Source: a virus (taxonomy: Duplodnaviria > Caudoviricetes). Taken from it: a stretch of 38,163 bases of DNA. The notes under the pieces were generated by a model. It was not told where the DNA came from, searched no databases, and was given only the letters and a program-made list of their open reading frames with translations. The translations under genes and the position numbers were made by a program. This document shows, piece after piece, positions 6,311-27,505 of this stretch; the first letter of the stretch is position 1, and each line of letters begins with the position of its first letter. The stretch covers positions 1 through 38,163 of IMG/VR virus record IMGVR_UViG_3300025035_000051; one strand, 5' to 3'.

Positions 6311-7182
6311 TCTAATAAATCTAGCTGAGTGAATTGCTTAGAGCTATTATAGGCTAAAATCTTATTATCAGTTGTCAGATTGTCTGCATCAAATTTAGGT
6401 ATTCGGGGTATAGGAACTAGGAATACCCTCTCTCTATATCGTAAGAGCATACGTATATTACGAAATATAATCTCTGGAGAAACGTCCCCATCAGGGCACA
6501 AAAATACTTCCTTCAATATTGAGATCTTCATAGCCTGCGCTCTGGTTACTATTGAACTTAGATAGGCTACAAAATTATCTCCAAAGGAAAATCCGGTAAA
6601 CCATCCCTCACACACAAAGTTTATATCATAACCCACAGCTCTATCAAAATTCATTAGGATACTTATCCTCTTTGAGGAGGGATTTCTGTATTTCATCTTA
6701 CTATTTCCAACAGCTCTAGATATGAAATAATCACATTTTCCAGTACCTAATTCAAAGTTAGGTACTACCAATCTCCCCTTGTAATCACCGATACCTTCTC
6801 GTATCGAATATCTATTTATTGTATCATCTGTTAATCCCCTCTTGTAGGCGTAATCTCGTATTTCTCCCTTATCTGAAATAACCCTAGACACCTCATCCAA
6901 ATTATAATACACCTTATCTTCTCTTTCCAAATATTCTAATATATCAGACTCTGAAAAGAAAGGGTCATACTTTAATTCCGGGATTGCAGAATATATGTTC
7001 TGTCCATAGGTAGAACATCTGTGACAAATGTACCTGTGGGTAACCAGGTTTATGTATAGATGCCCTCCGTCGTCTTTGGTCTTACCATTCCTTTCACAAA
7101 AGGGACAATTAGTAGACACCTCTTTACCAGAGGTACCTGAGGATCGGATATCTTTAAAAATTGAACTCAAACTCTTCCACAA
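6235..7182 (-). CDS. DNA primase (DnaG/T4 gp61-like)
   Basis: Zn-binding CPFC...HLY...CHRC; GRLVVP; KYRNP; TOPRIM VCEG and DGD. Confidence 0.88.
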   Translation of the reverse strand: MWKSLSSIFKDIRSSGTSGKEVSTNCPFCERNGKTKDDGGHLYINLVTHRYICHRCSTYGQNIYSAIPELKYDPFFSESDILEYLEREDKVYYNLDEVSRVISDKGEIRDYAYKRGLTDDTINRYSIREGIGDYKGRLVVPNFELGTGKCDYFISRAVGNSKMKYRNPSSKRISILMNFDRAVGYDINFVCEGWFTGFSFGDNFVAYLSSIVTRAQAMKISILKEVFLCPDGDVSPEIIFRNIRMLLRYRERVFLVPIPRIPKFDADNLTTDNKILAYNSSKQFTQLDLLDMDNSNKYKLMCKNLEVWYNSIFPL

Positions 7183-7747
7183 TTAGCATCTCTGACACAG
7201 TTGAACTCAAGATGTGCAAGGGAAATTTTTGTATTAAACTCTTACAATTATTTACAACTGCCCTATAGCTGCCTCCTGGAAATTTAGACTTATTACAGTG
7301 TGTCCAAAATAGTAATTCTAAGTAATCACAGATTTTTATAATCTGAAATTCGGGTGACATGTCCTCTTTCCATTCATTATATTTAGTGTGGAAGTCTAAT
7401 CCGATTTCTTTGAAAGCTGAGAATGTCATATCCTTAGCTACAGAATCTACAGTAGACATTATCTCCCTACCTAATCTTAATTTTAGAGGTAGTGGAAAAT
7501 CTGTAGTAACGGTTTCTTCAAAATCATGAAATAGAGCGCATTGTAACAAATTCAGTCTGTCTAAAGAATACATTACTTTAGTTCTAGCCATACCCTGCGC
7601 TATCTCATTCCCAATTAGAATGGCAAGAGCTGCTACTCCAAAAGAGTGTTCAGCTAAATTTTGTCTGTCCTTAAACGGCATATTGTTAAATCTAGTAGTA
7701 TACTGCATAAGGAAAATTTTCGATAAAGAATCATTCTTTGCTATCAT
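7154..7747 (-). CDS. HD-domain 5'-deoxynucleotidase (YfbR-like)
   Basis: R..., QNLAEHSFGVA, ALFHDFEE, KICDYLE motifs. Confidence 0.88.
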   Translation of the reverse strand: MIAKNDSLSKIFLMQYTTRFNNMPFKDRQNLAEHSFGVAALAILIGNEIAQGMARTKVMYSLDRLNLLQCALFHDFEETVTTDFPLPLKLRLGREIMSTVDSVAKDMTFSAFKEIGLDFHTKYNEWKEDMSPEFQIIKICDYLELLFWTHCNKSKFPGGSYRAVVNNCKSLIQKFPLHILSSTVSEMLIVEEFEFNF

Positions 7748-9365: not shown

Positions 9366-10946
9366 TTAATCTCTGTTTAAAAAATCTGTCAGAACACTAG
9401 GATCTGAAAACTGGTTATAGCGAGAATTCTCATAAATATCTTTTCGAGACCTAGAATGCTTCATGGTTACTGGATTAAGTTGGTCAACAAAATCCACTAT
9501 GTACCCATTGTTATCCTTCTTATCCGGAGATAATACTCTACTAGTTCGCTGCTTATTCAAGATGTCATTTTCAAATCCTTCTCCGGAGAGAAGTACCATC
9601 CATTTACACCCTGGAAAATCAACTCCCACATTGTAAATGTTTGTTCCTATCAAGACGTCTATTCCACCCGAATTAAATTCAGATACTACATCACTGATAG
9701 ACGTTCTTGAAGACTTCCCATACTTTAATTCCCATGTCTCTTCGGCTGATGAAAATACGCATCTCTTGTTATAAGGGATATTTTTTAGCATGTCTAAAAT
9801 TATCTTACCGTGATTTATTCGGTTTACTAATACCAGGCATCTCTTGTTAAAAGAAACAATCAGAGATATACATTCTACCGCCCTAAAATTTCTAGCAAAA
9901 TTAGCCACAATAAAAGTCTTATAAATTGCCGTATAATTACTCATAGTAAACTTAGGGTATTCCATCTTGTACGCTAACCATATAACATTTCCCCTAGATT
10001 TATAACCCTGCTCTATCAAGTACTCATCAGATATTCTCTTTATCACTTGTCCAAATACTTGCTGTATATTCATGTCTCTAACATGCTCGGAGGGGTTACT
10101 CTCATTCATGTAGGGAGTACCTGAACATGCTACTGCAATATCAGGATAATTTATGTCCATCATCCTAAACAGAGAATACTGGAACATATCTGCAGATCCA
10201 TCCTGTATTTCATCTACTATAAGAAAATCAGTAGAAGTTATTCGGTTAAATAATACCAAATCCTTCCTTCTCAGCCTACCAGATTCTTCTTTCTTTAAGA
10301 CGTTAAATACAGAATTTACAACACACACCAATATATCACAATAATAATCCGCCCTACCCCCATATAATTTTCCCACGGACTCAAATCCACGTAGTCTAAA
10401 CCTATCAAACATGTTATCAGCTAGGGGGCTCTTCCTTACTATTATTGTAACTTTACCTCTGGAATTCTCATTGTCTAAGTAGTTCTGAACTGCACAAATT
10501 AGCATCTCGGTCTTTCCCCCACGTGTAGGAACAAAGATTATGCCTCTTCTCTTCTGCAGAATGGTTTCTACTACTGGAGTTTGATAATCAGGTCTTAGAC
10601 GGAGGGTATCTGTTATCCAATCAAAAATTGGATAAGTAAGTTCTTTGGATTTAGTCTTTACCCTAAAGTCTCTGTAGGTCAACTGATCCTGAGTGTATCC
10701 CATTTCTATGAGGTACTTATTTAAGTAGTGTAACAATCCTGAATAAACCCACAGTACCTCGTCGGAGGTAGTCAGATAGATCTTCTTCTTGGTGCATCGT
10801 ATAGTGGAAACGTCTCCTGTCCTCTCGTCAACTATGTCCTCCATTTCTTCGAAAGTTATAGTAAAAAGTTCTTGCAGAAGATACACCTTATCATTTGGCA
10901 TACCCTCTACAAAAGTTTTTAGGTCGTAAACAGATATATATACCAC
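9366..10946 (-). CDS. superfamily 2 DNA helicase (UvsW-like)
   Basis: PTRGGKT, VDEIQ, SGTP, GVDFP, QRTSRVL; GTG start overlapping the upstream TAG. Confidence 0.9.
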   Translation of the reverse strand: MVYISVYDLKTFVEGMPNDKVYLLQELFTITFEEMEDIVDERTGDVSTIRCTKKKIYLTTSDEVLWVYSGLLHYLNKYLIEMGYTQDQLTYRDFRVKTKSKELTYPIFDWITDTLRLRPDYQTPVVETILQKRRGIIFVPTRGGKTEMLICAVQNYLDNENSRGKVTIIVRKSPLADNMFDRFRLRGFESVGKLYGGRADYYCDILVCVVNSVFNVLKKEESGRLRRKDLVLFNRITSTDFLIVDEIQDGSADMFQYSLFRMMDINYPDIAVACSGTPYMNESNPSEHVRDMNIQQVFGQVIKRISDEYLIEQGYKSRGNVIWLAYKMEYPKFTMSNYTAIYKTFIVANFARNFRAVECISLIVSFNKRCLVLVNRINHGKIILDMLKNIPYNKRCVFSSAEETWELKYGKSSRTSISDVVSEFNSGGIDVLIGTNIYNVGVDFPGCKWMVLLSGEGFENDILNKQRTSRVLSPDKKDNNGYIVDFVDQLNPVTMKHSRSRKDIYENSRYNQFSDPSVLTDFLNRD

Positions 10947-11299
10947 TATATTTTCTTAAATTGCTTAAGTAATTCTGGATTCTTGGTCAACATAAAATAT
11001 ATGTATAAGGAAACATAGTTACGTAAATCCATCAGAGTATCCAGAACTGTCTCATCCTTTACCTCAATGCTAAATCCATTCTTAAACAGATTCTGTAACC
11101 TATCCCATTTTCTAGCTGAATTTTCGTTTACAGACATTATACCTCTCTTCTGCCAACTTCCTCCGTAATCCCTGTCTTTTTTTATCATCAATTGAGAACA
11201 TTTTACTTCCAGCTCACGAAGTAACTCTAACGCCTCTTCATCCAGCTTATAATTTTCTATAGGTTCTAATAAATTTTCGTCAAATGCAACTGTCTTCAT
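10946..11299 (-). CDS. nucleotide modification associated domain 1 (Nmad1/DUF1599-like) protein
   Basis: KKDRDYGGSW...KWDRL.N...ETVLDTLMDLRNY matches the K..DYG.SW / K..RL / DT..DL.NY pattern. Confidence 0.8.
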   Translation of the reverse strand: MKTVAFDENLLEPIENYKLDEEALELLRELEVKCSQLMIKKDRDYGGSWQKRGIMSVNENSARKWDRLQNLFKNGFSIEVKDETVLDTLMDLRNYVSLYIYFMLTKNPELLKQFKKI

Positions 11300-16494: not shown

Positions 16495-16917
16495 CTACTT
16501 ACCTGTACTTCCGAATCCTCCTGAACCTCTTTGGGTATCGTTTAGGGTCTCTACTTGATTCCATTTTATAGGATGCCTGGTTTCTATTTCTAGTTGGCAC
16601 ACTCTGTCCCCAACCTCATAGTTGGGCAACGAGGGAATTATGTTATAAAATACTGCCATGTATTCACCTCGATAATCTGGGTCTCCTAATCCAACCCCAT
16701 TAGCTAAGCTCAATCCAGTCTTGTGTATACTACTTCTAGATTTCATAGTTACCTTGAATCCCTTTGGGTCTAAGGCTATGCCTAATCCGTATATTAATCT
16801 ACCATCTCCTAAATCTGTTTTAGAAGTGGCCACCAAGTCTACAGCTGCTGAACCCTCAGTGGCTAATTCTGGTATACGGGCTAAGGGGGACATTAATTTA
16901 ATATCTATTACGTTCAT
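16495..16917 (-). CDS. dut: trimeric dUTPase
   Basis: All five motifs: AAVDL, SRSS, GLGDPDYRGE, GDRVCQL, RGSGGFGSTG. Confidence 0.96.
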   Translation of the reverse strand: MNVIDIKLMSPLARIPELATEGSAAVDLVATSKTDLGDGRLIYGLGIALDPKGFKVTMKSRSSIHKTGLSLANGVGLGDPDYRGEYMAVFYNIIPSLPNYEVGDRVCQLEIETRHPIKWNQVETLNDTQRGSGGFGSTGK

Positions 16918-17126: not shown

Positions 17127-18158
17127 CTATATATTTAATAGTTCTCTGCCCCTTTCAAGTAACACAGATTTATCCAGGGTAGTTTCGTAGAAATCTGTTA
17201 TAAAGGAATGCAGAACCTCTTCTGGGGAATCTCCCTTTAATTTATTCTCTATATGCTTCATCTTTATAGATGCGCTAGACCTGTTGATTATTATCCTAGC
17301 ATATTTATTCAACTCGGCATCTAACTCCTCTAAGTTTTCTGCGGCAGGGTTATAATCAATATATACATAAGAAGAAACAGGTATTTCCAATTCTCTGAGC
17401 TCTTTTGTAGAATTAACCTTTACTAACCAGGGAGACACAGTATTCTGTATATGTTCTGTATTTAAATCTGAATCTATCCACAAGATACCCCTTTTCTTAG
17501 AAAATTCAGAATATTTATGCTGTATACATGAACCTACACAAGTTACATTTCCGATTACCTGGGGAATATGGTAATGGCCATTTATTATCTTAAATCCCTT
17601 TCGGAATGAATTAGGGTTCAATTCGGCTTCTGAAGTCTTGAAATTATTGAACTTGAATCCATTAAAATCTAAGTGAGTAAACGCTAAATCTGCTCTGGAT
17701 TCACTGGCTTTGAGGGCAGCAGATGTAAAATTCTTATCGTGACTGTATGGTATTAGGGAGATGAGTTTACCTTCGAGTTCAAATTCTTCGGGTTCTCTAA
17801 TTATCCTAGCCTCAGATAAGGAGCCAAAGTGGTCTACTGAAGTGACAGCATTGGATAAGATTCCCATGTCGTGATTTCCCAGTATTATTATATGCTCAGC
17901 ACCTACTTCTTTGCAGGCTTGGGTTATTTTAGATATACAAACTCCCATAGCAGACAATACCTCTGAAGAAACAATCCCGATACTGTTATAAGTATCTCCG
18001 CCATTTATGACTGCTCTAGGTTTTCTTTCTCGTATCTGGGAAGATATCCAGTCGGCACACTGTATAATATTATCCAGCCTTAATCCGTATCCACTCTTGG
18101 TTTTCATGTCAAACCTAGAATACTTATCTCCCTGTATATCGGTGTAGTATAATATCAT
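17127..18158 (-). CDS. SbcD/Mre11-like metallophosphoesterase nuclease (T4 gp47-like)
   Basis: TDIQ (variant of DxH), GGD, GNHD, FTH, GHYH; SbcC nearby. Confidence 0.9.
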   Translation of the reverse strand: MILYYTDIQGDKYSRFDMKTKSGYGLRLDNIIQCADWISSQIRERKPRAVINGGDTYNSIGIVSSEVLSAMGVCISKITQACKEVGAEHIIILGNHDMGILSNAVTSVDHFGSLSEARIIREPEEFELEGKLISLIPYSHDKNFTSAALKASESRADLAFTHLDFNGFKFNNFKTSEAELNPNSFRKGFKIINGHYHIPQVIGNVTCVGSCIQHKYSEFSKKRGILWIDSDLNTEHIQNTVSPWLVKVNSTKELRELEIPVSSYVYIDYNPAAENLEELDAELNKYARIIINRSSASIKMKHIENKLKGDSPEEVLHSFITDFYETTLDKSVLLERGRELLNI

Positions 18159-18895
18159 AGTTTTATGGTAAGTAAGTCCGTGAACTCTGTTAAATTGTTT
18201 ATCTTGACAAACGGTTCGAAGAAACTAATCTTCTCAAATAAAACGATAGAGGAGTTAGTGAATGTCTCTATGTGAGATATTCGCCATTCAGGGTATTCTC
18301 TTTTATAATACTCATAGGTGCCCTCTAGGAATTCTTTCTTAGAGCCAACCTCAAAACCTAAGAGTCTGCTATACACCTCATAAGATTTCTTACCCATTTT
18401 TAGATAAAAAACAGAACAGTCGTTAACTACAACATACTTTCGGGTATTCCTAAAGACATTATCTAGGACTTTCTTATACTTCTCCTGGTATTTCTTTAGA
18501 GTAAAATCATTAAAGTCTACCAGAGTTACGTCAGGGATTCCGTGTATGAATTCGTAGTCAAACATATCTTGGGCAGTAACTAAACTGGCAGGATTATTGG
18601 CTTTTAGGATTTCCCTACATTCAAGATTCAGATCATTGAATACGCATTGCACTCCAACCTCTTTGAATATCCTACCCGTTAATCCTACTCCACCCAACAA
18701 ATCTAAGTAAGTGTTGTACTCTCCTGATATTACCTTATGAATATTTGAATAGGCTGTCAACCTGAACTTAAAGTCAGAATCTACATTACCCTTTAAAAAT
18801 TCGTTGGTGTAAGGGGTGTCGTGAATTCTCTTCCTTTTGTCCTCTCTGAGAGAGGAGATAACAACAGGAGATTTCCCCTTGATTATTAATTCCAT
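18155..18895 (-). CDS. putative class I SAM-dependent methyltransferase
   Basis: Motif I YLDLLGGVG, acidic motif II FNDLN, QDMF, strand-4 LVDFN; lacks DPPY/NPPY or PC motifs of canonical DNA methyltransferases; starts 2 nt after the hypermodification fusion gene. Confidence 0.65.
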   Translation of the reverse strand: MELIIKGKSPVVISSLREDKRKRIHDTPYTNEFLKGNVDSDFKFRLTAYSNIHKVISGEYNTYLDLLGGVGLTGRIFKEVGVQCVFNDLNLECREILKANNPASLVTAQDMFDYEFIHGIPDVTLVDFNDFTLKKYQEKYKKVLDNVFRNTRKYVVVNDCSVFYLKMGKKSYEVYSRLLGFEVGSKKEFLEGTYEYYKREYPEWRISHIETFTNSSIVLFEKISFFEPFVKINNLTEFTDLLTIKL

Positions 18896-18897
18896 AG

Positions 18898-21800
18898 TTA
18901 GTTATTTACTTCAATATGACAAGACACTTCTTCAGGTCTAGTTATTCTTCTTTTAGCTCTCTTTACTTCGGGATTTTCAGCGTAGTGATTAACAAACACC
19001 GGAAAATCCTTATCCATCATTATAACCTCTCCAGTCTCTCTAAACCAGTTCTGTTTTAAGGGATGAATGCCTAAATCAGTTTTTACTGACTCCATCCTAA
19101 GATAGTCAGGTAATGTAAGGCTTCTAGCATCCCAAAAATCTTGGAAATCCACGTGATCCCATTTCTCTGATTCCGCATTGACAATTCTGTCGTAGAACAT
19201 ATCCTGATAAATATTAGGATATCTTCTATTCTTTCTAAACCACGACTTATAACAGCATAGGGTGCTCTCCAATGTGAAGAAATTTACATCCTTGCTGAAA
19301 GTTCTATCGTGAAATCTCAATTGGGCTTCTGAAAGTAATATGTGAGATTCCTTCTCCAGCCATTCCATCACTACTCTTCCGTACCCCTTAAAGTCAGGAT
19401 TTCCCTTATGCCAGTCTAAATCATCTCTTCCTAAGACTTTACATAACCCATTTCTAGGAGATACTGTTCCGTCTTTCTCGTATAGCATCAGGCTAGGACA
19501 ATTTATATTTACTCCTGCTATTCTTAGATATTCTAAGTAAGAATAAGTAGATAATCTGCCATACCACTTAAACCCATTTATAACTTTATCCCATAGAATA
19601 TTGAAATTAGACATCTGGTCAGTTCCGAATCCCTCTGAAAAGAACTCCACCTGAGTCTTACCGTTAAGATTCTTCATATAATCCTGCCACATTTCAACCA
19701 TGTGACCCTTTTGATATCTTCTGTCTATATCATATTGTAGGCGTTTCCAATTTGCTCTATGCCAACTCTCAAAGTCTTCGAAAGTAATAGCGTACAAGTT
19801 TGGAAACCTGTTAAATATAACCCACGTAGTGCAAGGATTTTGGGTACATCCATTTATAAAACAAAACCATAATTTCTGCTCTTCAGTAAATTTATACTTA
19901 TCCCATAAGTGTTGGAACACATAATACACTGCTCCGGGATGGGATTTATACTGTAGGTGGAATTCATAGAATTTTAGAAATACCTCTCGCCTAAACTTAG
20001 GTTCTCTAAAATCATCTCCAACCTTTAGATTACTTACTTCAATTGCAGCTCTGCCCTCTGGTATACCTGTCTCCCCAATGAACAATTCCTTAGTTAAAAC
20101 GAATTCCTCATTTTTATCCTCTGGGGTAATTAGAGGAGTTCTGAGAGTGTTTTGGACAAAACTACCCAAAGTGCTATTATCTGGGCATTCCGTAGATGTA
20201 GTTCCCCTAGAATTTGCTACAGACTCTGTCTTGACCTCTGCAATATCCTTAAGTTTTCTCTTAACAGAATTGTCTCTGTAAACATTTACTTGTGTCGGAT
20301 AATCTCCAAGTGCAGGCGTTAAATGATTCATACTAGACATTCTGGGCTTAGACCCTATAATCCAAAGCATACTAGTGTCGCTTATCAACGATGGCATTTT
20401 CTCTGTTAGGTACGACATTACTTTACCTTCATAAGTGGGATGAAATTCTAACCCATTATACGTAAACGGCATCTCCTGCTGGTAATCGGTATAGCCCTCT
20501 TCAAATATGTTTACATAATTTAAATTGAAACAGTTAACTTCAGAGTCAGACGTTAAACTAGGACTATCAAAAGTTTTTAAGAAGTTCTTAGTATTAACTC
20601 CAGATACCTTTCGAATTATATTCAGCCTCTCTTCAATAAGCTTCATCTTATTTGGACCTATCCCTATCAAATACACATTCTTTAGGTTAGGAAATCTACT
20701 TATGAATTTTGTTAAACCATAAAGAATAGAGATAGTAGAATTAGTACTCCCTGCAGGTATAATTATGTTCTCTATAAAAACTGGTATGTTCTGAACCTGG
20801 AAAGCCCCTGTTGCGTGAAATCCATGAACATAGTCGTCTGAAGCATCCTTAGGTGGAGTTATTCCATAATTTAGGTAGTAATCTATATTCCCTCGCTCTT
20901 CTAATAAATCTTTTGCCTTCTTCTGAAGATAGGGATTGTATCCCACAGGTTCGTACTGGAATTCAGACCCAAACCACGTAGCCATCTTTACCATATCTCT
21001 ATCAAAAGAACTTTTTGGATTAGTGGCTCCTACAATATGAATGCTCCCCATTCCGTAGTGCTTAGCTACGCAAGTACCCATAGGCAATTGGGGTGACTTT
21101 AAGCTAGCTCCGGATATTAACTTAGATTCAGGTATAGGTTTGAACTGACTTACCATCCAAATACATTGTCTTAACTTAGAACCATTTATTCCCCCGTATC
21201 CTAAAGGGGCAAAAGTATCTTCTCTCTTAAAATACATTTCTCCTACCTGTTGGACAGGAGTTAGGTTATAAAGGTGCTCTTCCCAGTGAATAGAATTTCT
21301 GTCCATAGTTGATGTATCCGGAAATACAGAGTACATTAAGCTCTTATCTAAAAGGGCTACCTCAGGAGTCTTTACTGCAACCGTTTTAGGCTTAGTAGTC
21401 TTAATAACTTCGGTGTAAATACCTTCGGACTTGTCCTCTATAGCTTTTCCGGAATACTTATTTATGTTTATGTAGTCGCTTCTTTCGCAGAACTCAACAA
21501 ATGTTTTCTTACTATCTGGACTGTTGTAAATATCCTCAAAGAACTTCTCTCCTAAATGAGACAAGGGAACACTGTAAGAATTGTAGGATAGAGCACATCG
21601 CATTGAATCTCCTAATTCCTTCTCCTCATCTAGGGACATCTCGAAATCTCTAACCATGCCAGAACGTCCAAGCCACATAGAATCCTTAGCAGGTTCTTTA
21701 CCACTTCTGTATTTAACTCTGGCTAAATATTCTGGCTTGTCTTCTTCTTCGTAGTTGTAATAATAGTTGGCTACTAAATCTAATTGAGGACTGCGAGCTT

Positions 21801-22167
21801 TAAGATAGGCAGGTCTGAATCTAAAAGAACCTGTAATGCCAGCTCCCTCTATTATTAAATTATGGTTTTTTAAAACATCTTCTATGAAGTCACTCCATAA
21901 TTTAGCAGTAGCCTGTCTACCAGATACTGAATCAAAGCCTTGGAATCTAAATACTTCATGCTTCACGTAGTACTTCCCTAGGATAATGAGATTTAACTCT
22001 TTTATGAATAATCCGTGAGGTTCTACCTTTCCATTAGTGCTTTTGTACATAAAATCCTCAAAGGTATACCCTTGATTCTTTAAGAAGTCTAATAGCATAA
22101 ATAATCTGGTAGATTTTCCTGATGCGGATATCCCCTTTACGTTAATCAAATACCTGTACTCTTTCAT
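18898..22167 (-). CDS. three-domain thymidine hypermodification protein: P-loop (5-hmdU DNA kinase-like) + fold-type-II PLP enzyme + clade-2 aGPT-Pplase/amino acid:DNA transferase
   Basis: aa 1-~240 GISASGKST; aa ~290-625 KRED...GGINGSKLRQ, PAGSTNST, HPTYEGK (ACC deaminase/D-cysteine desulfhydrase-like); aa ~715-1089 DFR..RREVF..FY..HL, DRRYQK, YGRLSTYSYLEYL, RNGL, FTLESTLC.YK, RYP. Confidence 0.85.
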   Translation of the reverse strand: MKEYRYLINVKGISASGKSTRLFMLLDFLKNQGYTFEDFMYKSTNGKVEPHGLFIKELNLIILGKYYVKHEVFRFQGFDSVSGRQATAKLWSDFIEDVLKNHNLIIEGAGITGSFRFRPAYLKARSPQLDLVANYYYNYEEEDKPEYLARVKYRSGKEPAKDSMWLGRSGMVRDFEMSLDEEKELGDSMRCALSYNSYSVPLSHLGEKFFEDIYNSPDSKKTFVEFCERSDYININKYSGKAIEDKSEGIYTEVIKTTKPKTVAVKTPEVALLDKSLMYSVFPDTSTMDRNSIHWEEHLYNLTPVQQVGEMYFKREDTFAPLGYGGINGSKLRQCIWMVSQFKPIPESKLISGASLKSPQLPMGTCVAKHYGMGSIHIVGATNPKSSFDRDMVKMATWFGSEFQYEPVGYNPYLQKKAKDLLEERGNIDYYLNYGITPPKDASDDYVHGFHATGAFQVQNIPVFIENIIIPAGSTNSTISILYGLTKFISRFPNLKNVYLIGIGPNKMKLIEERLNIIRKVSGVNTKNFLKTFDSPSLTSDSEVNCFNLNYVNIFEEGYTDYQQEMPFTYNGLEFHPTYEGKVMSYLTEKMPSLISDTSMLWIIGSKPRMSSMNHLTPALGDYPTQVNVYRDNSVKRKLKDIAEVKTESVANSRGTTSTECPDNSTLGSFVQNTLRTPLITPEDKNEEFVLTKELFIGETGIPEGRAAIEVSNLKVGDDFREPKFRREVFLKFYEFHLQYKSHPGAVYYVFQHLWDKYKFTEEQKLWFCFINGCTQNPCTTWVIFNRFPNLYAITFEDFESWHRANWKRLQYDIDRRYQKGHMVEMWQDYMKNLNGKTQVEFFSEGFGTDQMSNFNILWDKVINGFKWYGRLSTYSYLEYLRIAGVNINCPSLMLYEKDGTVSPRNGLCKVLGRDDLDWHKGNPDFKGYGRVVMEWLEKESHILLSEAQLRFHDRTFSKDVNFFTLESTLCCYKSWFRKNRRYPNIYQDMFYDRIVNAESEKWDHVDFQDFWDARSLTLPDYLRMESVKTDLGIHPLKQNWFRETGEVIMMDKDFPVFVNHYAENPEVKRAKRRITRPEEVSCHIEVNN

Positions 22168-23159
22168 TTTAATCTTGTTAATGCTGGACTAACTAGCAAG
22201 TCCGTTACTGACTCTAAGCCATATTTTCTAGAGTGACCCAACGCTTTGTTGTAATCAAAGGAGTGCTCCTTACTCATGCAAAGATCTAAATGGGGTCTAA
22301 GATTCTTCAAGACAGAAGAATTTAACGCCATTAGGTTCATATTTCTCCTAAAATTCTCTCGGTTAGACACAAGTAATTTATAAAGTTTGTCAGAAATAAG
22401 ACCCTGAGAATTATCTACTATGCTATCCACATTTATAGGAAGACCGGGAATCTTAGAAATTCCAGTTATAAGTTTGCGGCAGGTTGCTTCTCCCATTCCC
22501 TTAACCACGCTAGGAATTTTATCTGAGGTATCTCCTAATAGGGCTTTCTCAAATATAAATAATTTCTTGTTTACACCTGTTATTCCCTCAAAGTTCTCAG
22601 GAGTTATATACTGGGGTGCTTTGCCTTTAGAATAAGCATTTGGTCTATACAGATGTGCTCCGTACTCTACCGATTGAGCCCAATCCCAGTCGTCAGTTAT
22701 TAAGATAGTTTGATAACCACTATTTACAGAATTGTATAAGACAGATAAATACATACCAATATCATCAGCTTCAAATCCTGGAGCTGAACCTATTCGGATT
22801 CCTAAATCGGGTAGAATCTCTCTTAATATAGAATCTTGGGTTTCTAATAACTCTTTCTTGGAGAACTCTTCTCCCTTTTCAGGAGTGCAAAAATCGTCTA
22901 AATAAGACTTGTCCTTCTTCTTATACCCAGAATATATTTCCTTCCGGAAGTTGCAAGCCCCTCCCGTCATACAAAAAAAGACTAAGTCAGGCTCTTGGTC
23001 TACAATAATACTTCCTAGGGAAGACAGAACTCCTTTTACTATTCCGGTAGGGGTCTTTACTCCATTTACAGTAAATGATAATTTCCTTAAGGATGCTATA
23101 TGTAGGCACCTGTGCATAAGGTGATCTCCATCAAATATCAATATTTTATAAGGTCGCAT
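22164..23159 (-). CDS. 5'-3' exonuclease / flap endonuclease (T4 RNase H-like)
   Basis: FDGD, FRKEIYSGYK, EADD, TDDWDW, LLGDTSDKIP..KGMGE. Confidence 0.92.
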   Translation of the reverse strand: MRPYKILIFDGDHLMHRCLHIASLRKLSFTVNGVKTPTGIVKGVLSSLGSIIVDQEPDLVFFCMTGGACNFRKEIYSGYKKKDKSYLDDFCTPEKGEEFSKKELLETQDSILREILPDLGIRIGSAPGFEADDIGMYLSVLYNSVNSGYQTILITDDWDWAQSVEYGAHLYRPNAYSKGKAPQYITPENFEGITGVNKKLFIFEKALLGDTSDKIPSVVKGMGEATCRKLITGISKIPGLPINVDSIVDNSQGLISDKLYKLLVSNRENFRRNMNLMALNSSVLKNLRPHLDLCMSKEHSFDYNKALGHSRKYGLESVTDLLVSPALTRLK

Positions 23160-24084
23160 GGCTAAACAGTGTTAGAGAGTCGTAATAATCCGTTAAGTAA
23201 TCTTTATGGTGTTCTTTAGGAAAGTACTTTGCCCTACCATAATTCTTATCTCTCTCACTCTGAGTACAGTACTTATGATACTCACACAAAGAGTGTTCTA
23301 TAAATCTGAGATGGACACTTTTATCAGGAGATAGATACCAAAAGGGTAATCCCGAGGATTCTATGAACTTAGGGAATTTTAAAGTTAAATTGTACAGGGC
23401 TTCTTTACGTGAAGAATCTCCTATCAAGGTATTACCGTAAATCCGCTTTAATCCCTCTACTGCTCCTGGACCTACATTAACGTAGGAGTCAAAGGTAAAT
23501 CCAGTAATCCCTAAATGTACTAAATTGCAATATATCTCGTAAGCTACAAAATTACCTACCCCCTTATAATTTAGGAGATGGTTGACTAGCTTTAACGGAT
23601 CTCCTTCATCTAAAACTGTTAAGGTATCCTCTAAGGTCTTCAGAAATTCATAAAATACTGTTGTTACGTATCCCTGAAGCTTAGGCATTCCGTGTACTAC
23701 AGGGTAAACAAAGTAAGCATTAGTCATCACGGTTGTACCTAGTTTCCTGTTATCCCTCTCAACTCTTATCAAATCCTCCAAAAATTGAGGGTACTCTTCA
23801 ATGTCTAAGGGCATCCCTCCTGCTAGATTTACTGTATTTATGTTGTTTAAAACAGAAAATACTAAAGTATTTAGTACCTTAATAGGGTAATCCATATTAG
23901 AATTGCGAGCTACGTTGATTATAAACCACACTGTGTTTCTATCTAATTCCCTATAAACATTTGTGTATTTAGTAGTCCCTAGAATAGGATCTTCAGTCCA
24001 GGGAGGTTTATTTTTTAAAATAAACCTCTCATGCCAAATGTTGTGTCTTTCTTGAATAAACTTGAAAAATCCCTCTTCAATCAT
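23146..24084 (-). CDS. clade-1 alpha-glutamyl/putrescinyl thymine pyrophosphorylase-family protein (amino acid:DNA transferase-like, HhH fold)
   Basis: ERH.IW..R.....PPWTEDPIL...KYTNVYRELDR, HhH-like KGVGNFVAYEI, VGPGA..GL, IEHSLCEYHKY. Confidence 0.88.
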   Translation of the reverse strand: MIEEGFFKFIQERHNIWHERFILKNKPPWTEDPILGTTKYTNVYRELDRNTVWFIINVARNSNMDYPIKVLNTLVFSVLNNINTVNLAGGMPLDIEEYPQFLEDLIRVERDNRKLGTTVMTNAYFVYPVVHGMPKLQGYVTTVFYEFLKTLEDTLTVLDEGDPLKLVNHLLNYKGVGNFVAYEIYCNLVHLGITGFTFDSYVNVGPGAVEGLKRIYGNTLIGDSSRKEALYNLTLKFPKFIESSGLPFWYLSPDKSVHLRFIEHSLCEYHKYCTQSERDKNYGRAKYFPKEHHKDYLTDYYDSLTLFSHATL

Positions 24085-24096
24085 AAACCCGTAGTA

Positions 24097-25254
24097 TTAA
24101 GGTTTCAGAGTCATCTTCCCCTCTTCAAGGAGTCCTCTAATTAAATCTTCTCGCTCCTGTGCTAGTCTTAAATAGCGTTCAGTCAATGAGGGAAACATCT
24201 CCGCTAGGAATCTATATATCAAAATTACCATCCAATGATAAATTCCATAATTTTCCATACCCTTATAATAAGTGCCAAATAAAGACCTGAGCTGAATTTT
24301 AGGGAAAGACTTATCTCCAAAGGGAGCTACTATTGTAGTCCAACTTCCCCCTCCGATTAGTCTATTCTGAATACAATAGTCATGAACAGCTTTACCCGCA
24401 CTGAAACCTGTTGAATAAAATAAGGGTATATCAAAATTCAAATACGGGGGAGCTTGTTTGTTCTTAACAGTAGATATATTAACTACATTACCAATTACCA
24501 TCTTCTCGTAAGATGGGTCGTATATTTTACTCTTCTGGACTACCCTGATATGAGCAGAAACTTGATGATGTAAACCATGTCCTCCAGAAGTAACTAATTT
24601 ATCAGAACCAAACATTTCTCTATTGTCATAGACTTGAGACAGTAGGACTAAAAATGCTTGATTTCTATTTAGTAAGTGAACTAACTCCTTAAGCTTGGTC
24701 TTTATAACTCTAGCTTCCTCCTGTTGTCCTCCTGCAAAGGGATCCATCTCCTTACGTAAGTCATCTATTCCTCCCTTTCCAGTGATGGTGCTGGCCATTT
24801 GAGCTTTAGTTATTGTACTCTGGAAAGTGTCCCAACTTAACATCACGGGGATGGTAGGGTATGCCTTTTTTATAGCCAGCATAGTATCTTTTAGCCATTC
24901 AAATCCGCCCTCTAAAGTCTGTATTGATTCACTAGAAATAACTAATGCCCCCAAATCAGTACCTAGAGCTTTTGCTCTTTCTAAATCTAAAGTATTTTCT
25001 GACTCAGCGTGAGCGCACAGCCCTCCTATTTCTTGTATACCTATCATAGATTGGTTGAGCAGAGTAGACTTGCCAGAAGACTTCTCTCCAGAAAGTAAAT
25101 ATACTCTTCCAGGCAAAAACCCACCCCCTAAAATTAAATCTAAAGGGTCTAATCTTGAGGGTATAGGGTCAGAACTCAAATACTCTATTCCCTCGGGGTC
25201 AGATGCTACTCTGGCTCCGGGTATATCTAATTTCTTAAAATTTATTTTTTCCAT
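24097..25254 (-). CDS. RecA/UvsX-like recombinase
   Basis: LDLILGGGF.PGR, Walker A GEKSSGKST, ESENTLD, Walker B LSWDT, SGGHGL, VKNKQAPP. Confidence 0.92.
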   Translation of the reverse strand: MEKINFKKLDIPGARVASDPEGIEYLSSDPIPSRLDPLDLILGGGFLPGRVYLLSGEKSSGKSTLLNQSMIGIQEIGGLCAHAESENTLDLERAKALGTDLGALVISSESIQTLEGGFEWLKDTMLAIKKAYPTIPVMLSWDTFQSTITKAQMASTITGKGGIDDLRKEMDPFAGGQQEEARVIKTKLKELVHLLNRNQAFLVLLSQVYDNREMFGSDKLVTSGGHGLHHQVSAHIRVVQKSKIYDPSYEKMVIGNVVNISTVKNKQAPPYLNFDIPLFYSTGFSAGKAVHDYCIQNRLIGGGSWTTIVAPFGDKSFPKIQLRSLFGTYYKGMENYGIYHWMVILIYRFLAEMFPSLTERYLRLAQEREDLIRGLLEEGKMTLKP

Positions 25255-25256
25255 AA

Positions 25257-26357
25257 TTAAAACCCAAAAGGTAATGGGGGTATTCCGTTGTTACCCGAAT
25301 TTTCTGGGATAAACGGCTGAGCTGCCCCAGGCTGTAAAGGTTGTGGTGCAGGAATTGGAGCTTGTGTAGGAGCAGGAATTGGAGCTTGTGTAGGAGCAGG
25401 TGCTTGAGGAACTATAGGCTGAGGCTGAACTACAGGCTGTTTAGGCATAGTATTAAACTCCGCTGCTCTCTCTCTAGACAATGAATTAGAGCTTTCCACG
25501 TACTTAAATTGATTCTCCAATATTGCATCTAAAGTTTCAGCATACTCTCGTATATTTGACTCATAGTACTTATTGGGTCTATACTGTTCAAATAAATTAT
25601 GACTTCCCGCTATAGCTTCTTTTATAGCAGCTACTTGTTCACTGTGAGGTAACCCCTCATACCACATTGGAGAATGGGGGACAATACTTCTTTCATATCC
25701 CACCCTAGTTCCTCCCGAAATAGCTTTTTTTACTTTCTTTATCGAAACCAAAGAACCTTTTAGCGGATGAGTTAAATCAAATTTAGCAAACTTGTTATTT
25801 ATCTGCTCCTGCAAGAATTTTAAAGTTACTACGTTACTCTCCAATATGGACACCGTCACTTTATTTACTAATTTTCCGTTCTCTACAGTCTGCAGATATT
25901 TAGCATGGTCTGGGTCAGGAGAGTCTACTAGCAATACATTAAAGTATGCAGACTCAGAGGATACATTCTCCTTTACGTTGTCTGCAAAACCTTTAGCCTC
26001 CCATTTTTCTATTACTCTTTTCAGAGGATTCTGAACTCCTAGCCACGGAAATGACCCTTCAGCGTCCAGGATAACTCCATTTGTCTTTCCATCCTTTTTA
26101 GGTAGATTCCAGTGGGTCTTAACCACAAGTCCTATTCGTCCTCCGTAAGGAGTCTCTGGAGTAAAATCAACGGTAGGTGGGCATACGAAGAATACATACT
26201 CCCCCTCAACTTTCATTCGTATTTCAGGGATATCCGAATTTGTCGAATTACCTGAATCCTGTCCATAAAATGTTTCTACATCTTTGTTTAAAACCTGCTT
26301 GTTTATAGGTCTCACCAAATCCTGTAATTCCTGCTCAATACTTGTCAATTCTGCCAT
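25257..26357 (-). CDS. putative single-stranded DNA-binding protein (T4 gp32-like) with Pro/Gln-rich tail
   Basis: Directly upstream of UvsX; size, HW, YFNVLL and DLTHP..G pattern; disordered tail ending LPFGF; mostly contextual. Confidence 0.55.
   Translation of the reverse strand: MAELTSIEQELQDLVRPINKQVLNKDVETFYGQDSGNSTNSDIPEIRMKVEGEYVFFVCPPTVDFTPETPYGGRIGLVVKTHWNLPKKDGKTNGVILDAEGSFPWLGVQNPLKRVIEKWEAKGFADNVKENVSSESAYFNVLLVDSPDPDHAKYLQTVENGKLVNKVTVSILESNVVTLKFLQEQINNKFAKFDLTHPLKGSLVSIKKVKKAISGGTRVGYERSIVPHSPMWYEGLPHSEQVAAIKEAIAGSHNLFEQYRPNKYYESNIREYAETLDAILENQFKYVESSNSLSRERAAEFNTMPKQPVVQPQPIVPQAPAPTQAPIPAPTQAPIPAPQPLQPGAAQPFIPENSGNNGIPPLPFGF
25348..25400. repeat. 24-bp tandem repeat x2.2 encoding PAPTQAPI
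   Basis: gcaggaattggagcttgtgtagga at 25348-25371 and 25372-25395, partial third copy. Confidence 0.92.
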
Positions 26358-26371
26358 AACTTGTTATTTAT

Positions 26372-27505
26372 TTATTTTTGTTTATTTAAAAATCCTCCTA
26401 TGAAAAATTTGTCGGACTTCAGCAGCCCCTCCCACAAATGAGAATCCTTTCTGATTACTTCGGGGGATAAAATCTCCATAATTTCGGAGGCAGCTAATTT
26501 ATTTTTTAAAAATGCTAACTGTAAAAGAGGGATAACCAAATAAGAATTCATGCTCCGTGTAAGAGCAAATTCGGATAGAGATTCTTTTAACCTCCCTGTA
26601 AGAGGATTGAGTATTCTATTAAATAATTCAATATAAGCCGAAAGGTTACTATCCAAATTCTTCCATGAAGTTTCATTAACAGGGATGTGCTTGTTTATAT
26701 CGAATTTATTAGGAGACTCTTCTTCGAATAAAATCTTGTCCATCACATCAAAATGTCTCTCATAAATATGGAGAGAACCCGCATTGTGAAAATACGTTCC
26801 CACTTCTACACAGAGAATACTAGCTACTAATTCTTGCAGGAATGTCCATTCAAAGTAATTTATCCCTGTCAACCCAAATATGACATCGTTACTTCGCATA
26901 TTTGTAATACAATGTAATTTGTTATTGCGTATCAAAAATTGCACACTTAATGTGCAAGGAGTATCCAAAGTCTCATTTGTAACTAAGTTATCTCCCGCTA
27001 TGGGTATAACTATGTAAGCTTGTCTACTAGAAGGATCTTGAGTGAGAATATCTATTACATTCTTTACCTGATTTACTTTGAATTTTCTAGAATATACTTT
27101 CGGAAATAGTAAAAAATCTTCTCCCTCACTCCTCGTTACTAAAAAATCCTTAGGAGGATTCACTTCTAAATAAGAGATTCTACCATATCCTGCTCTCCAG
27201 GATATCTGGTCATCAGAATAATTAATAGCTCTAGGTAAAAATGGAGATAAATAAGTGAGGTCTCGGCTTCCAGAAATAACCCACACAGTCTCAGCTATCT
27301 GAGCTACTAGATTATTTTTTCGAGCAGGATTACGAAGTATCCTATCTAAAGGATTATCTGAACTGATTGTGTAACTGATAATTTCTTTAATGGTAGACTC
27401 TGTCCTACTATTAATAGATATTTGTCCTGTAGATTTTAAATCTTTCAGGGATCTCACCATAACTTCATCAATTCCTGAAGCTGGATTAGATTTAAATAAT
27501 GACAT
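26372..27505 (-). CDS. thymidylate-synthase-family enzyme, probable dUMP hydroxymethylase
   Basis: E..W, AGYGR, DPSSRQA, catalytic TPCT, MRSND..FG...IN, SLHIYERH; Asn at the dUMP/dCMP specificity position; hypermodification genes nearby. Confidence 0.82.
   Translation of the reverse strand: MSLFKSNPASGIDEVMVRSLKDLKSTGQISINSRTESTIKEIISYTISSDNPLDRILRNPARKNNLVAQIAETVWVISGSRDLTYLSPFLPRAINYSDDQISWRAGYGRISYLEVNPPKDFLVTRSEGEDFLLFPKVYSRKFKVNQVKNVIDILTQDPSSRQAYIVIPIAGDNLVTNETLDTPCTLSVQFLIRNNKLHCITNMRSNDVIFGLTGINYFEWTFLQELVASILCVEVGTYFHNAGSLHIYERHFDVMDKILFEEESPNKFDINKHIPVNETSWKNLDSNLSAYIELFNRILNPLTGRLKESLSEFALTRSMNSYLVIPLLQLAFLKNKLAASEIMEILSPEVIRKDSHLWEGLLKSDKFFIGGFLNKQK

What the first reader, a model, noticed from the sequence alone, without database searches (positions are those of the whole stretch)
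18898..22167. Whole thymidine-hypermodification pathway fused in one 1089-aa polypeptide (kinase + PLP enzyme + amino acid:DNA transferase)
Seen: one uninterrupted ORF with a P-loop domain (GISASGKST, ~22167-21450), a fold-type-II PLP domain with its Schiff-base Lys motif (GGINGSKLRQ, ~21300-20300) and a clade-2 aGPT-Pplase-like domain (~20020-18898), joined by low-complexity Thr/Lys/Ser linkers. Established: in phages such as ViI and M6, a 5-hmdU DNA kinase, an amino acid:DNA transferase and a PLP decarboxylase are separate genes that act in sequence on hmdU-DNA to give aminoethoxy-methyl or aminoethyl uracils. Inference: here all three steps are tethered as an assembly line that channels the labile pyrophosphorylated intermediate along DNA. 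I know of no characterised triple fusion, but cannot exclude uncharacterised database examples.
Basis: partly seen in the sequence, partly recalled or inferred. Interest (0 to 1): 0.92.

Follow-up and report, generated by a model that had tools for sequence, protein, structure and literature searches.

The report
Fused thymine-modifying enzyme with extra methyltransferase
An uncultured groundwater phage joins three enzymes, separate in known phages, into one protein that likely decorates thymine in its DNA with an amino-alkyl group; such a triple fusion is already in print, but the next gene has a methyltransferase fold and would add a methylation step not yet described.

Summary
One intact 1089-aa ORF carries homologues of ViI gp243 (5-hmdU DNA kinase, 30% identity), gp226 (PLP decarboxylase, 39%, Schiff-base Lys kept) and gp247 (serine:DNA transferase, 34%, catalytic Cys kept). 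Other assemblies bridge both linkers, and 4 relatives share the domain order. The novelty claim fails: Lee et al. 2022 already report a triple fusion of these three enzymes in metavirome contigs, untested biochemically. The intermediate is singly phosphorylated 5-PmdU, not a pyrophosphate, and nothing supports channelling. Trees point to fusion of adjacent genes from a same-order operon; a second triple fusion in another order arose separately. The likely product is serine-derived 5-NeOmdU (about 55%), though one pocket residue differs from ViI. Its relatives lie directly beside the transferase gene in 6 other loci, and no cultured phage record matched it. It may N-methylate the appended amine, up to a choline-like thymine; this is untested. 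Earlier scan notes found related split cassettes on other DNA, not this fusion or methyltransferase.

The parts
18898..22167 (-). 1089-aa triple fusion: 5-hmdU DNA kinase + PLP decarboxylase + amino acid:DNA transferase
   Evidence: start overlaps the upstream exonuclease gene by 4 nt
21460..22167 (-). kinase domain (residues 1-236), HMUD2 / ViI gp243 type; Walker A G12-T20
   Evidence: PF18747 E 1.9e-20; 30% to gp243; only the Walker A region matches gp67 and PhiW-14 gp37
21319..21459 (-). linker 1, 47 aa
   Evidence: much longer in relatives, 3 of 4 with a CxxC..CxxC motif
20278..21318 (-). PLP-dependent decarboxylase domain (284-630); K331 aligns with ViI gp226 K92
   Evidence: 39% to gp226, E 2e-88; K92 predicted to form the internal aldimine
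20032..20277 (-). linker 2, 82 aa
18973..20031 (-). amino acid:DNA transferase (clade 2 aGPT-Pplase) domain (713-1065); E967, S968, catalytic C971, R982-Y983, D989
   Evidence: 34% to gp247; residue mapping to YuA, 15599 and ViI
18155..18895 (-). 246-aa class I SAM-dependent methyltransferase-fold protein of an unnamed family, 2 nt after the fusion's stop; candidate tailoring enzyme
   Evidence: AlphaFold pLDDT 95.5; Foldseek class I methyltransferases; profile hits KsgA and HI0767; gene context
23146..24084 (-). clade 1 aGPT-Pplase-type helical protein (Pfam HMUDK_hel)
   Evidence: PF18723 E 3e-43
26372..27505 (-). thymidylate-synthase homologue, likely dUMP hydroxymethylase that supplies 5-hmdU
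   Evidence: 33% to ViI orf66, E 2e-34; E 2e-19 to YuA gp17; far below all ThyA cut-offs
16495..16917 (-). dUTPase (likely dUMP supply)
7154..7747 (-). HD-domain 5'-deoxynucleotidase-like protein (candidate for dT-nucleotide removal)
10946..11299 (-). Nucleotide-modification-associated domain 1 (DUF1599), weak hit
   Evidence: PF07659 E 1.7e-4, below cut-off

Best explanation
This phage gene encodes the three post-replicative enzymes of the ViI-type thymine hypermodification pathway in one chain, which likely turns 5-hydroxymethyluracil in the phage DNA into a serine-derived aminoethoxy base that the neighbouring methyltransferase-fold protein would then N-methylate. Steps: (1) the thymidylate-synthase homologue makes 5-hmdUMP and the polymerase incorporates it (inferred from homology). 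(2) The N-terminal kinase adds one phosphate, giving 5-PmdU (shown for ViI gp243, inferred here). (3) The C-terminal transferase attacks C6 with Cys971, expels phosphate and adds an amino acid through its side chain, most likely serine (shown for gp247; chemistry inferred here at about 85%, serine at about 55-60%). (4) The middle PLP domain (Lys331) decarboxylates the free alpha-amine adduct, giving 5-NeOmdU (shown for gp226, inferred here). (5) The adjacent SAM enzyme methylates the amine (guilt by association only, about 45%). The fusion most likely arose when neighbouring genes of a same-order operon joined; it fixes stoichiometry and co-locates the enzymes but need not channel anything. 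The likely purpose is resistance to host restriction nucleases. The confidence given is for steps 1-4 with serine.
For: All three domains match the experimentally characterised ViI enzymes, with the predicted PLP Lys and the catalytic Cys aligned (functions). The transferase pocket is ViI-like: D815 (ViI D128), the GRLS motif and R982-Y983 (ViI R299-Y300). It lacks the glycine-specifying Lys (YuA K248, here C972), and the acidic diamine-specifying D238 is replaced by Arg. A PLP enzyme without a radical-SAM isomerase fits a side-chain-linked adduct with a free alpha-amine (no CxxxCxxC motif in any window ORF of 70 aa or more). Accessory genes are present. In both domain trees the five kinase-PLP-transferase fusions form one clade (FastTree support 1.0 and 0.998). 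In the PLP tree they group with split same-order operons L036 and L043 and the kinase-PLP double fusion P0016 (support 0.955). Methyltransferase: relatives abut the transferase gene in 3 of 64 other transferase clusters found with transferase queries (L023/24, L036, L100/101) and in 3 of 5 new loci found with the methyltransferase as query (L111-L113). A fourth (L110) lies in a kinase-helical-TS cluster cut by the contig end.
Against: There is no biochemistry and no cultured host. Identity to gp247 is only 34%, and the position after the catalytic Cys is Cys here but Trp in ViI. The 2026 paper shows that two pocket changes switch the donor, so serine is not secure. The metal-associated D24/D25 of YuA and 15599 aligns with G745 (N in ViI), in a region where the alignment is uncertain. 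Pfam ADDT and PALP do not hit this protein. The contig is a 38-kb fragment, so other tailoring genes could be missing. The methyltransferase is absent from the fetched DNA of 60 of 65 transferase clusters (many cut short). It occurs without a PLP gene nearby in L023 and L110-L113, without any cluster gene in L109, and 8 kb away on the other strand in L046. Its fold matches are generic (TM at most 0.53). GATC is still strongly avoided in the window (observed/expected 0.35), so T-containing sites are not all shielded.
Confidence: 0.55

Rival explanations
1. Same three-step chemistry, but the transferase uses another side-chain nucleophile (threonine, cysteine, homoserine or lysine/ornithine), so the base is not 5-NeOmdU.
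For: C972 replaces ViI W288 next to the catalytic Cys and could open the pocket. Many Pplase2 clusters are uncharacterised, and donor choice rests on a few residues. None of the four characterised transferases that I aligned falls in this large 'ES(T/A)LC(C/T)YKSWHR' clade.
Against: ViI is the closest characterised relative for all three domains. The PLP domain is 39% identical to gp226, which acts on O-SerT.
Confidence: 0.28
2. The adjacent methyltransferase-fold gene does not touch the modified thymine. It is an ordinary DNA adenine or cytosine methylase, or it methylates a free precursor, and sits here because modification genes cluster.
For: Its best profile hits include KsgA, RsrI and DpnM, and one family member hits Pfam D12. 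L109 and L046 copies are not in a transferase operon. A distant subfamily lies beside radical-SAM genes with no transferase in view.
Against: It is directly adjacent to the transferase gene in the window and 6 other independent loci, whose transferases lie on separate branches. Only 3 of 147 members hit a DNA-methylase Pfam family, all weakly.
Confidence: 0.45
3. One reading: the fusion is a selected assembly line that channels a labile phosphorylated base from site to site along DNA.
For: Triple fusion arose at least twice, in two orders, and the fusion is kept across 57-60% identity. Tethering is therefore tolerated and may be favoured.
Against: The intermediate is covalently in DNA, mono-phosphorylated and was used in two-step assays. 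Domain order is not reaction order. Linkers vary up to fourfold in length and are unconserved. Most relatives are split.
Confidence: 0.15
4. The ORF is a mis-assembly or chance read-through of three separate genes.
For: Neighbouring genes in this operon are packed head to tail, and relatives have the three genes split in the same order.
Against: Contigs from runs X1, X2, X4, X5 and X6 cross the linkers without indels. Four diverged proteins have the same fusion, one in the same gene neighbourhood (L004).
Confidence: 0.01

Closest known systems
Salmonella phage ViI 5-NeOmdU pathway (gp243 5-hmdU DNA kinase, gp247 serine:DNA transferase, gp226 PLP decarboxylase)
   Same: All three domains are homologous (30, 34 and 39% identity), with the PLP Lys, catalytic Cys, GRLS and RY motifs aligned. 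A TS-like gene and a clade-1-type helical gene are also present.
   Different: One polypeptide instead of three scattered genes. No gp67-type second kinase in the window. Cys instead of Trp after the catalytic Cys. An adjacent methyltransferase-fold gene that no record of the cultured-phage collection matched. PolA-type phage with baseplate genes, not an ackermannvirus-type PolB.
Metavirome triple fusion '5-HMUDK + PLP-dependent decarboxylase + clade 2 aGPT-Pplase' of Lee et al. 2022 (PMC8989533, Fig. 2 sequences 14-16)
   Same: Same three domains in one ORF, listed in the same order; also uncultured and untested.
   Different: I could read the text and legend but not the figure, so I cannot tell whether it is this lineage. 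Their contigs were found with M6 gp54, ViI gp67 and PhiW-14 gp37; this kinase barely matches gp67 and gp37, so theirs may be a separate fusion. The sections read mention no methyltransferase in the clusters.
Pseudomonas phage M6/YuA 5-NedU pathway
   Same: Kinase, transferase and PLP decarboxylase logic.
   Different: Needs a radical-SAM isomerase (none on this contig) and a glycine pocket Lys (absent here).
PhiW-14 gp109 and SH-Ab 15599 diamine:DNA transferases
   Same: Catalytic E-(T/S)-x-x-C motif.
   Different: Their acidic pocket residue D238 is Arg here, and they need no decarboxylase.
PaMx11 5-AcNmdU pathway
   Same: Precedent for a last enzyme (acetyltransferase gp48) that caps the amine of a hypermodified thymine.
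   Different: Here the candidate capping enzyme has a SAM-methyltransferase fold.

Membership tests
5-hmdU DNA kinase (HMUD2, ViI gp243 type) | Pfam PF18747 above curated cut-off | tested here: met
   73.7 bits against cut-off 25. Covers model positions 4-182 of 298; stand-alone relatives of 237-241 aa cover about the same part.
5-hmdU DNA kinase (HMUD2, ViI gp243 type) | Intact Walker A and downstream RxxxRSG motif shared with gp243 | tested here: met
5-hmdU DNA kinase (HMUD2, ViI gp243 type) | ATP-dependent formation of 5-PmdU in DNA | not testable with these tools
   needs an assay
Amino acid:DNA transferase (clade 2 aGPT-Pplase) | Pfam PF18724 match | tested here: inconclusive
   No hit for this protein at E up to 1. 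The four 65-70% identical relatives carry PF18724 in precomputed annotation; E 8e-36 to gp247.
Amino acid:DNA transferase (clade 2 aGPT-Pplase) | Catalytic Cys and neighbouring metal-binding Glu/Thr | tested here: met
   C971, E967 and S968 align with 15599 C226, E222 and T223; C971 aligns with ViI C287
Serine-specific transferases (ViI cluster) | ViI pocket residues | tested here: inconclusive
   D815, R982 and Y983 shared; C972 against W288, S975 against K291 and D989 against E306 differ
Glycine-specific transferases (M6/YuA/PaMx11) | K159 and K248 bind the glycine carboxylate | tested here: not met
   S876 and C972 at these columns
Diamine:DNA transferases (PhiW-14, 15599) | G227, H230, D238 pocket | tested here: not met
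   C972, S975, R982
gp226-type PLP decarboxylase | Homology and Schiff-base Lys | tested here: met
   39% identity; K331 aligns with K92. Pfam PALP not hit; ACC deaminase model E 0.006.
gp226-type PLP decarboxylase | Decarboxylation of the DNA-bound adduct | not testable with these tools
   needs an assay
M6 5-NedU pathway | Radical-SAM isomerase gene | tested here: not met
   None in the 38-kb contig; the rest of the genome is not held
Class I SAM-dependent methyltransferase (18155-18895) | Rossmann fold with acidic-x-x-G-G-x-G motif I and acidic motif II | tested here: met
   D/E65 in 146 of 147, G69 and G71 invariant, D/E88 in 147 of 147; model and Foldseek
Class I SAM-dependent methyltransferase (18155-18895) | Acceptor is an amine on the modified thymine | not testable with these tools
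   Gene context only. D127-F-N-x-F after the fourth core strand resembles the DPPY/F motif of amino-methyltransferases (motif recalled, not from a call).

The most novel reading that the evidence does not exclude
The fusion plus its coupled methyltransferase make an N-methylated thymine hypermodification, at the extreme a permanently charged choline-ether base, 5-(2-trimethylammonio-ethoxy)methyl-dU. The 246-aa protein would found a widespread unnamed family (490 representatives at E up to 0.001) of methyltransferases that cap amines on modified DNA bases.
Probability: 0.3. Interest if true: 0.75.

Novelty: new variant of a known kind. Interest (0 to 1): 0.42.

Why it matters
The fusion is a known kind of architecture in a known pathway. 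Its value is practical: one ORF that may install an amine handle on 5-hmdU DNA, and a direct way to test whether tethering matters. The more interesting lead is the neighbouring methyltransferase family. If it methylates the appended amine, it gives phage DNA bases that my literature searches did not find described, and it suggests how phages might vary the modification to evade modification-dependent nucleases. It can be tested on existing 5-NeOmdU phage DNA without culturing this phage.

Tried and rejected
AlphaFold of the full 1089-aa chain with a 5-sequence alignment failed (pLDDT 34.8); no inter-domain contacts can be read from it and I did not search with it. A profile search of the fusion alignment against PDB sequences found nothing at E 0.01. 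Scans with the fusion alignment A1, the single methyltransferase and alignment A4 found no loci in viral contigs. The A9 methyltransferase scan found none in prokaryote genomes, and alignments A5 (genomes) and A8 (viral) were too divergent to scan. VIA-align was busy twice. One RNA run held two short contigs (151 and 211 nt) inside the ORF: too little to show transcription. Iyer et al. 2013, which first defined these families, is not held, so I cannot say whether it lists this fusion or methyltransferase; one search fetched an unrelated paper and was ignored. Literature searches: '5-HMUDK'+'triple fusion' gave only Lee 2022; 'aGPT-Pplase'+'methyltransferase'+'phage' gave 7 papers; '5-NeOmdU' gave 9. 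The N-methyl/aminoethyl query gave only Lee 2022, with 0 'N-methyl' occurrences. The choline query returned 7,152 mostly unrelated papers, and none of the 30 listed contains 5-NeOmdU. One search gave 0 papers. Most subscription journals are not covered. No complex prediction was run, because I do not claim binding. Palindrome avoidance is mixed and was not used as support. Rejected: pyrophosphate intermediate, M6-type product, assembly artefact.
Full report
Observation. The window is a minus-strand phage replication and tail-gene region: PolA, DnaB, primase, SbcCD, RecA-like, baseplate and tail-fibre genes. It is the whole contig held, and the runs that hold it are aquifer or groundwater metagenomes. 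The ORF 18898-22167 is open for 1089 codons. It matches Pfam HMUD2 at residues 7-188 and two unnamed PHROGs at 284-629 and 718-1077. Against the characterised ViI proteins the three parts give 30% (gp243), 39% (gp226) and 34% (gp247) identity. Assembled contigs from X4 and X5 each cross both linkers, X6 crosses each separately, and X1 and X2 (possible sources) hold the whole stretch. None shows an indel, and 9 of 10 X5 variants in the ORF are silent.

Relatives. Of 36 non-self proteins of similar length, domain mapping shows 4 with the same kinase-PLP-transferase order (P0003-P0006, 1278-1324 aa, 57-60% identity). Six more have an N-terminal extension, then transferase, then PLP (P0017, 18, 20-23; 5 of 6 with an AAA_18 P-loop annotation). 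The rest are 10 PLP-transferase, 14 transferase-PLP, 1 kinase-PLP and 1 TET-transferase fusions. Among 101 loci fetched with transferase queries, only the window's own contig (L005) and L004 have the triple fusion, and L004 shares the helical gene-exonuclease-fusion order. None of 384 matching cultured-phage records covers 80% of the query in one place. FastTree trees of 56 transferase and 49 PLP domains (a chosen subset, near-duplicates left out, rooted on ViI) put the five same-order fusions in one clade. In the PLP tree that clade groups with the split same-order operons L036 and L043 and the double fusion P0016, and the other-order triples form a separate clade in both trees. I read this as fusion of neighbours in an operon, happening more than once. 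This is inference; no formal clade test was run.

Literature. Lee et al. 2022 (PMC8989533): I read the introduction, sections 15, 16, 17, 21 and 23, keyword passages and a keyword search of the one held supplement, but not the figures. [quoted passage not shown] It was not assayed. They also show that the kinases add a single phosphate (5-PmdU), that transferases need a Cys and a Glu, and that the PLP enzymes decarboxylate only adducts with a free alpha-amine. So the architecture is in print and the pyrophosphate premise is outdated. Whether their contig is this lineage I cannot tell: this kinase hardly matches two of their three search queries. Li et al. 2026 (PMC13458397; abstract, parts 1-2 of 4 of Results, keyword passages) give pocket residues for glycine and diamine donors. 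PMC13229309, PMC12686479, PMC5889632 and bioRxiv 10.64898/2026.05.19.726188 were seen as keyword searches or passages only, and PMC11472151 as abstract and outline. None of what I saw describes the fusion further or a methylating step. Iyer 2013 was not available.

Product. Mapping (numbering verified on the YuA and 15599 sequences) shows E967/S968/C971 at the metal and catalytic positions. The glycine-binding lysines are absent, Arg stands in place of the diamine-binding Asp, and D815, GRLS and R982-Y983 are shared with ViI. With a gp226-like decarboxylase and no radical-SAM gene on the contig, a side-chain-linked amino acid is likely, and serine (giving 5-NeOmdU) is the best guess. Cys instead of ViI's Trp next to the catalytic Cys leaves real room for another donor. 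A TS homologue closer to ViI orf66 than to any ThyA model, a dUTPase and an HD nucleotidase fit pre-replicative 5-hmdU supply.

The gene that starts 2 nt after the fusion's stop (18155-18895, 246 aa) has no PHROG or NCBIfam hit, no Pfam hit better than E 0.2 and no match in 50,697 phage records. Its family is large: 490 representatives at E up to 0.001, 57 at 1e-30. AlphaFold with 147 sequences gives pLDDT 95.5. Foldseek and a profile search return class I SAM methyltransferases, among them amine N-methyltransferases (NmbA, BpumL, a PE N-methyltransferase, KsgA), at generic similarity; the SAM motifs are nearly invariant. Context, forward: of 65 transferase clusters at 90% identity, 5 have the gene in the fetched DNA. 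These are the window, three with it directly adjacent (L023/24, L036, L100/101) and one 8 kb away on the other strand. Context, reverse: a methyltransferase query gave 6 loci. One repeats L036, three have it directly after the transferase (L111-L113), one is in a kinase-helical-TS cluster at a contig end (L110), and one is beside a terminase with no cluster gene in view (L109). The closest representative in my comparison (P0044, 48%) and the triple fusion P0004 are each recorded on a 6381-nt Logan contig, which suggests but does not show the same contig. Against a strict role on the decarboxylated base: L023 and L110-L113 show no PLP gene nearby. A distant subfamily (6 loci, 5 distinct) sits beside radical-SAM-like genes, twice with an M6 gp52-type PLP gene and never with a transferase in view. 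The simplest shared reading is an enzyme that methylates amines on modified bases, but this is association only.

Verdict. The fusion is real and most likely functional, but it is a further example of a reported architecture in a characterised pathway. The assembly-line idea is unsupported. The coupled methyltransferase-fold gene makes the locus a new variant with a cheap decisive test. Interest 0.42; the novel case (an N-methylated, possibly choline-like thymine) has probability about 0.3 and would merit about 0.75.

Noticed in passing
L114:4114-8135, L115:4874-9164, L116:4925-9491, L118:4904-9180, L119:5731-9564: A distant subfamily of the methyltransferase sits in a different phage cassette: two radical-SAM-like genes, plus an M6 gp52-type PLP gene (L114, L115) or an aldo-keto reductase (L116/L117, L118), with no amino acid:DNA transferase within 6 kb. 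Possibly an undescribed DNA-modification pathway.
   Followed up: partly
P0003-P0005, linker 1 (alignment A1, columns 400-425): Three of four related fusions carry a CxxC...CxxC zinc-ribbon-like motif in the long first linker; it is degenerate in P0006 and absent in the window's protein.
   Followed up: no
P0017, P0018, P0020-P0023: An independent triple fusion in the order P-loop, transferase, PLP (906-925 aa); one member is on a 1.28-Mb contig, so it may be cellular or in a prophage.
   Followed up: partly
L113:6010-8001: Amino acid:DNA transferase interrupted by an intein with an HNH endonuclease.
   Followed up: no
L007:11194-12819: 542-aa PLP protein with a C-terminal extension weakly like a second 5-hmdU kinase (PF18748, E 0.03).
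   Followed up: no
P0038: TET/JBP dioxygenase fused to an amino acid:DNA transferase.
   Followed up: no
window 1-38163: Strong avoidance of GGCC (0.22), CGCG (0.26), GATC (0.35) and GCGC (0.53) against Markov expectation, and CpG ratio 0.53.
   Followed up: partly
window 25257-26357 (-): 366-aa gene between the RecA-like and TS-like genes with a Pro/Gln/Ala-rich tail and no Pfam, PHROG or NCBIfam hit; its position suggests a single-strand binding protein (guess).
   Followed up: no
window 18155-27505: None of the eight starts checked has an obvious Shine-Dalgarno motif; upstream stretches are AT-rich. This may point to a host group that does not use one.
   Followed up: no
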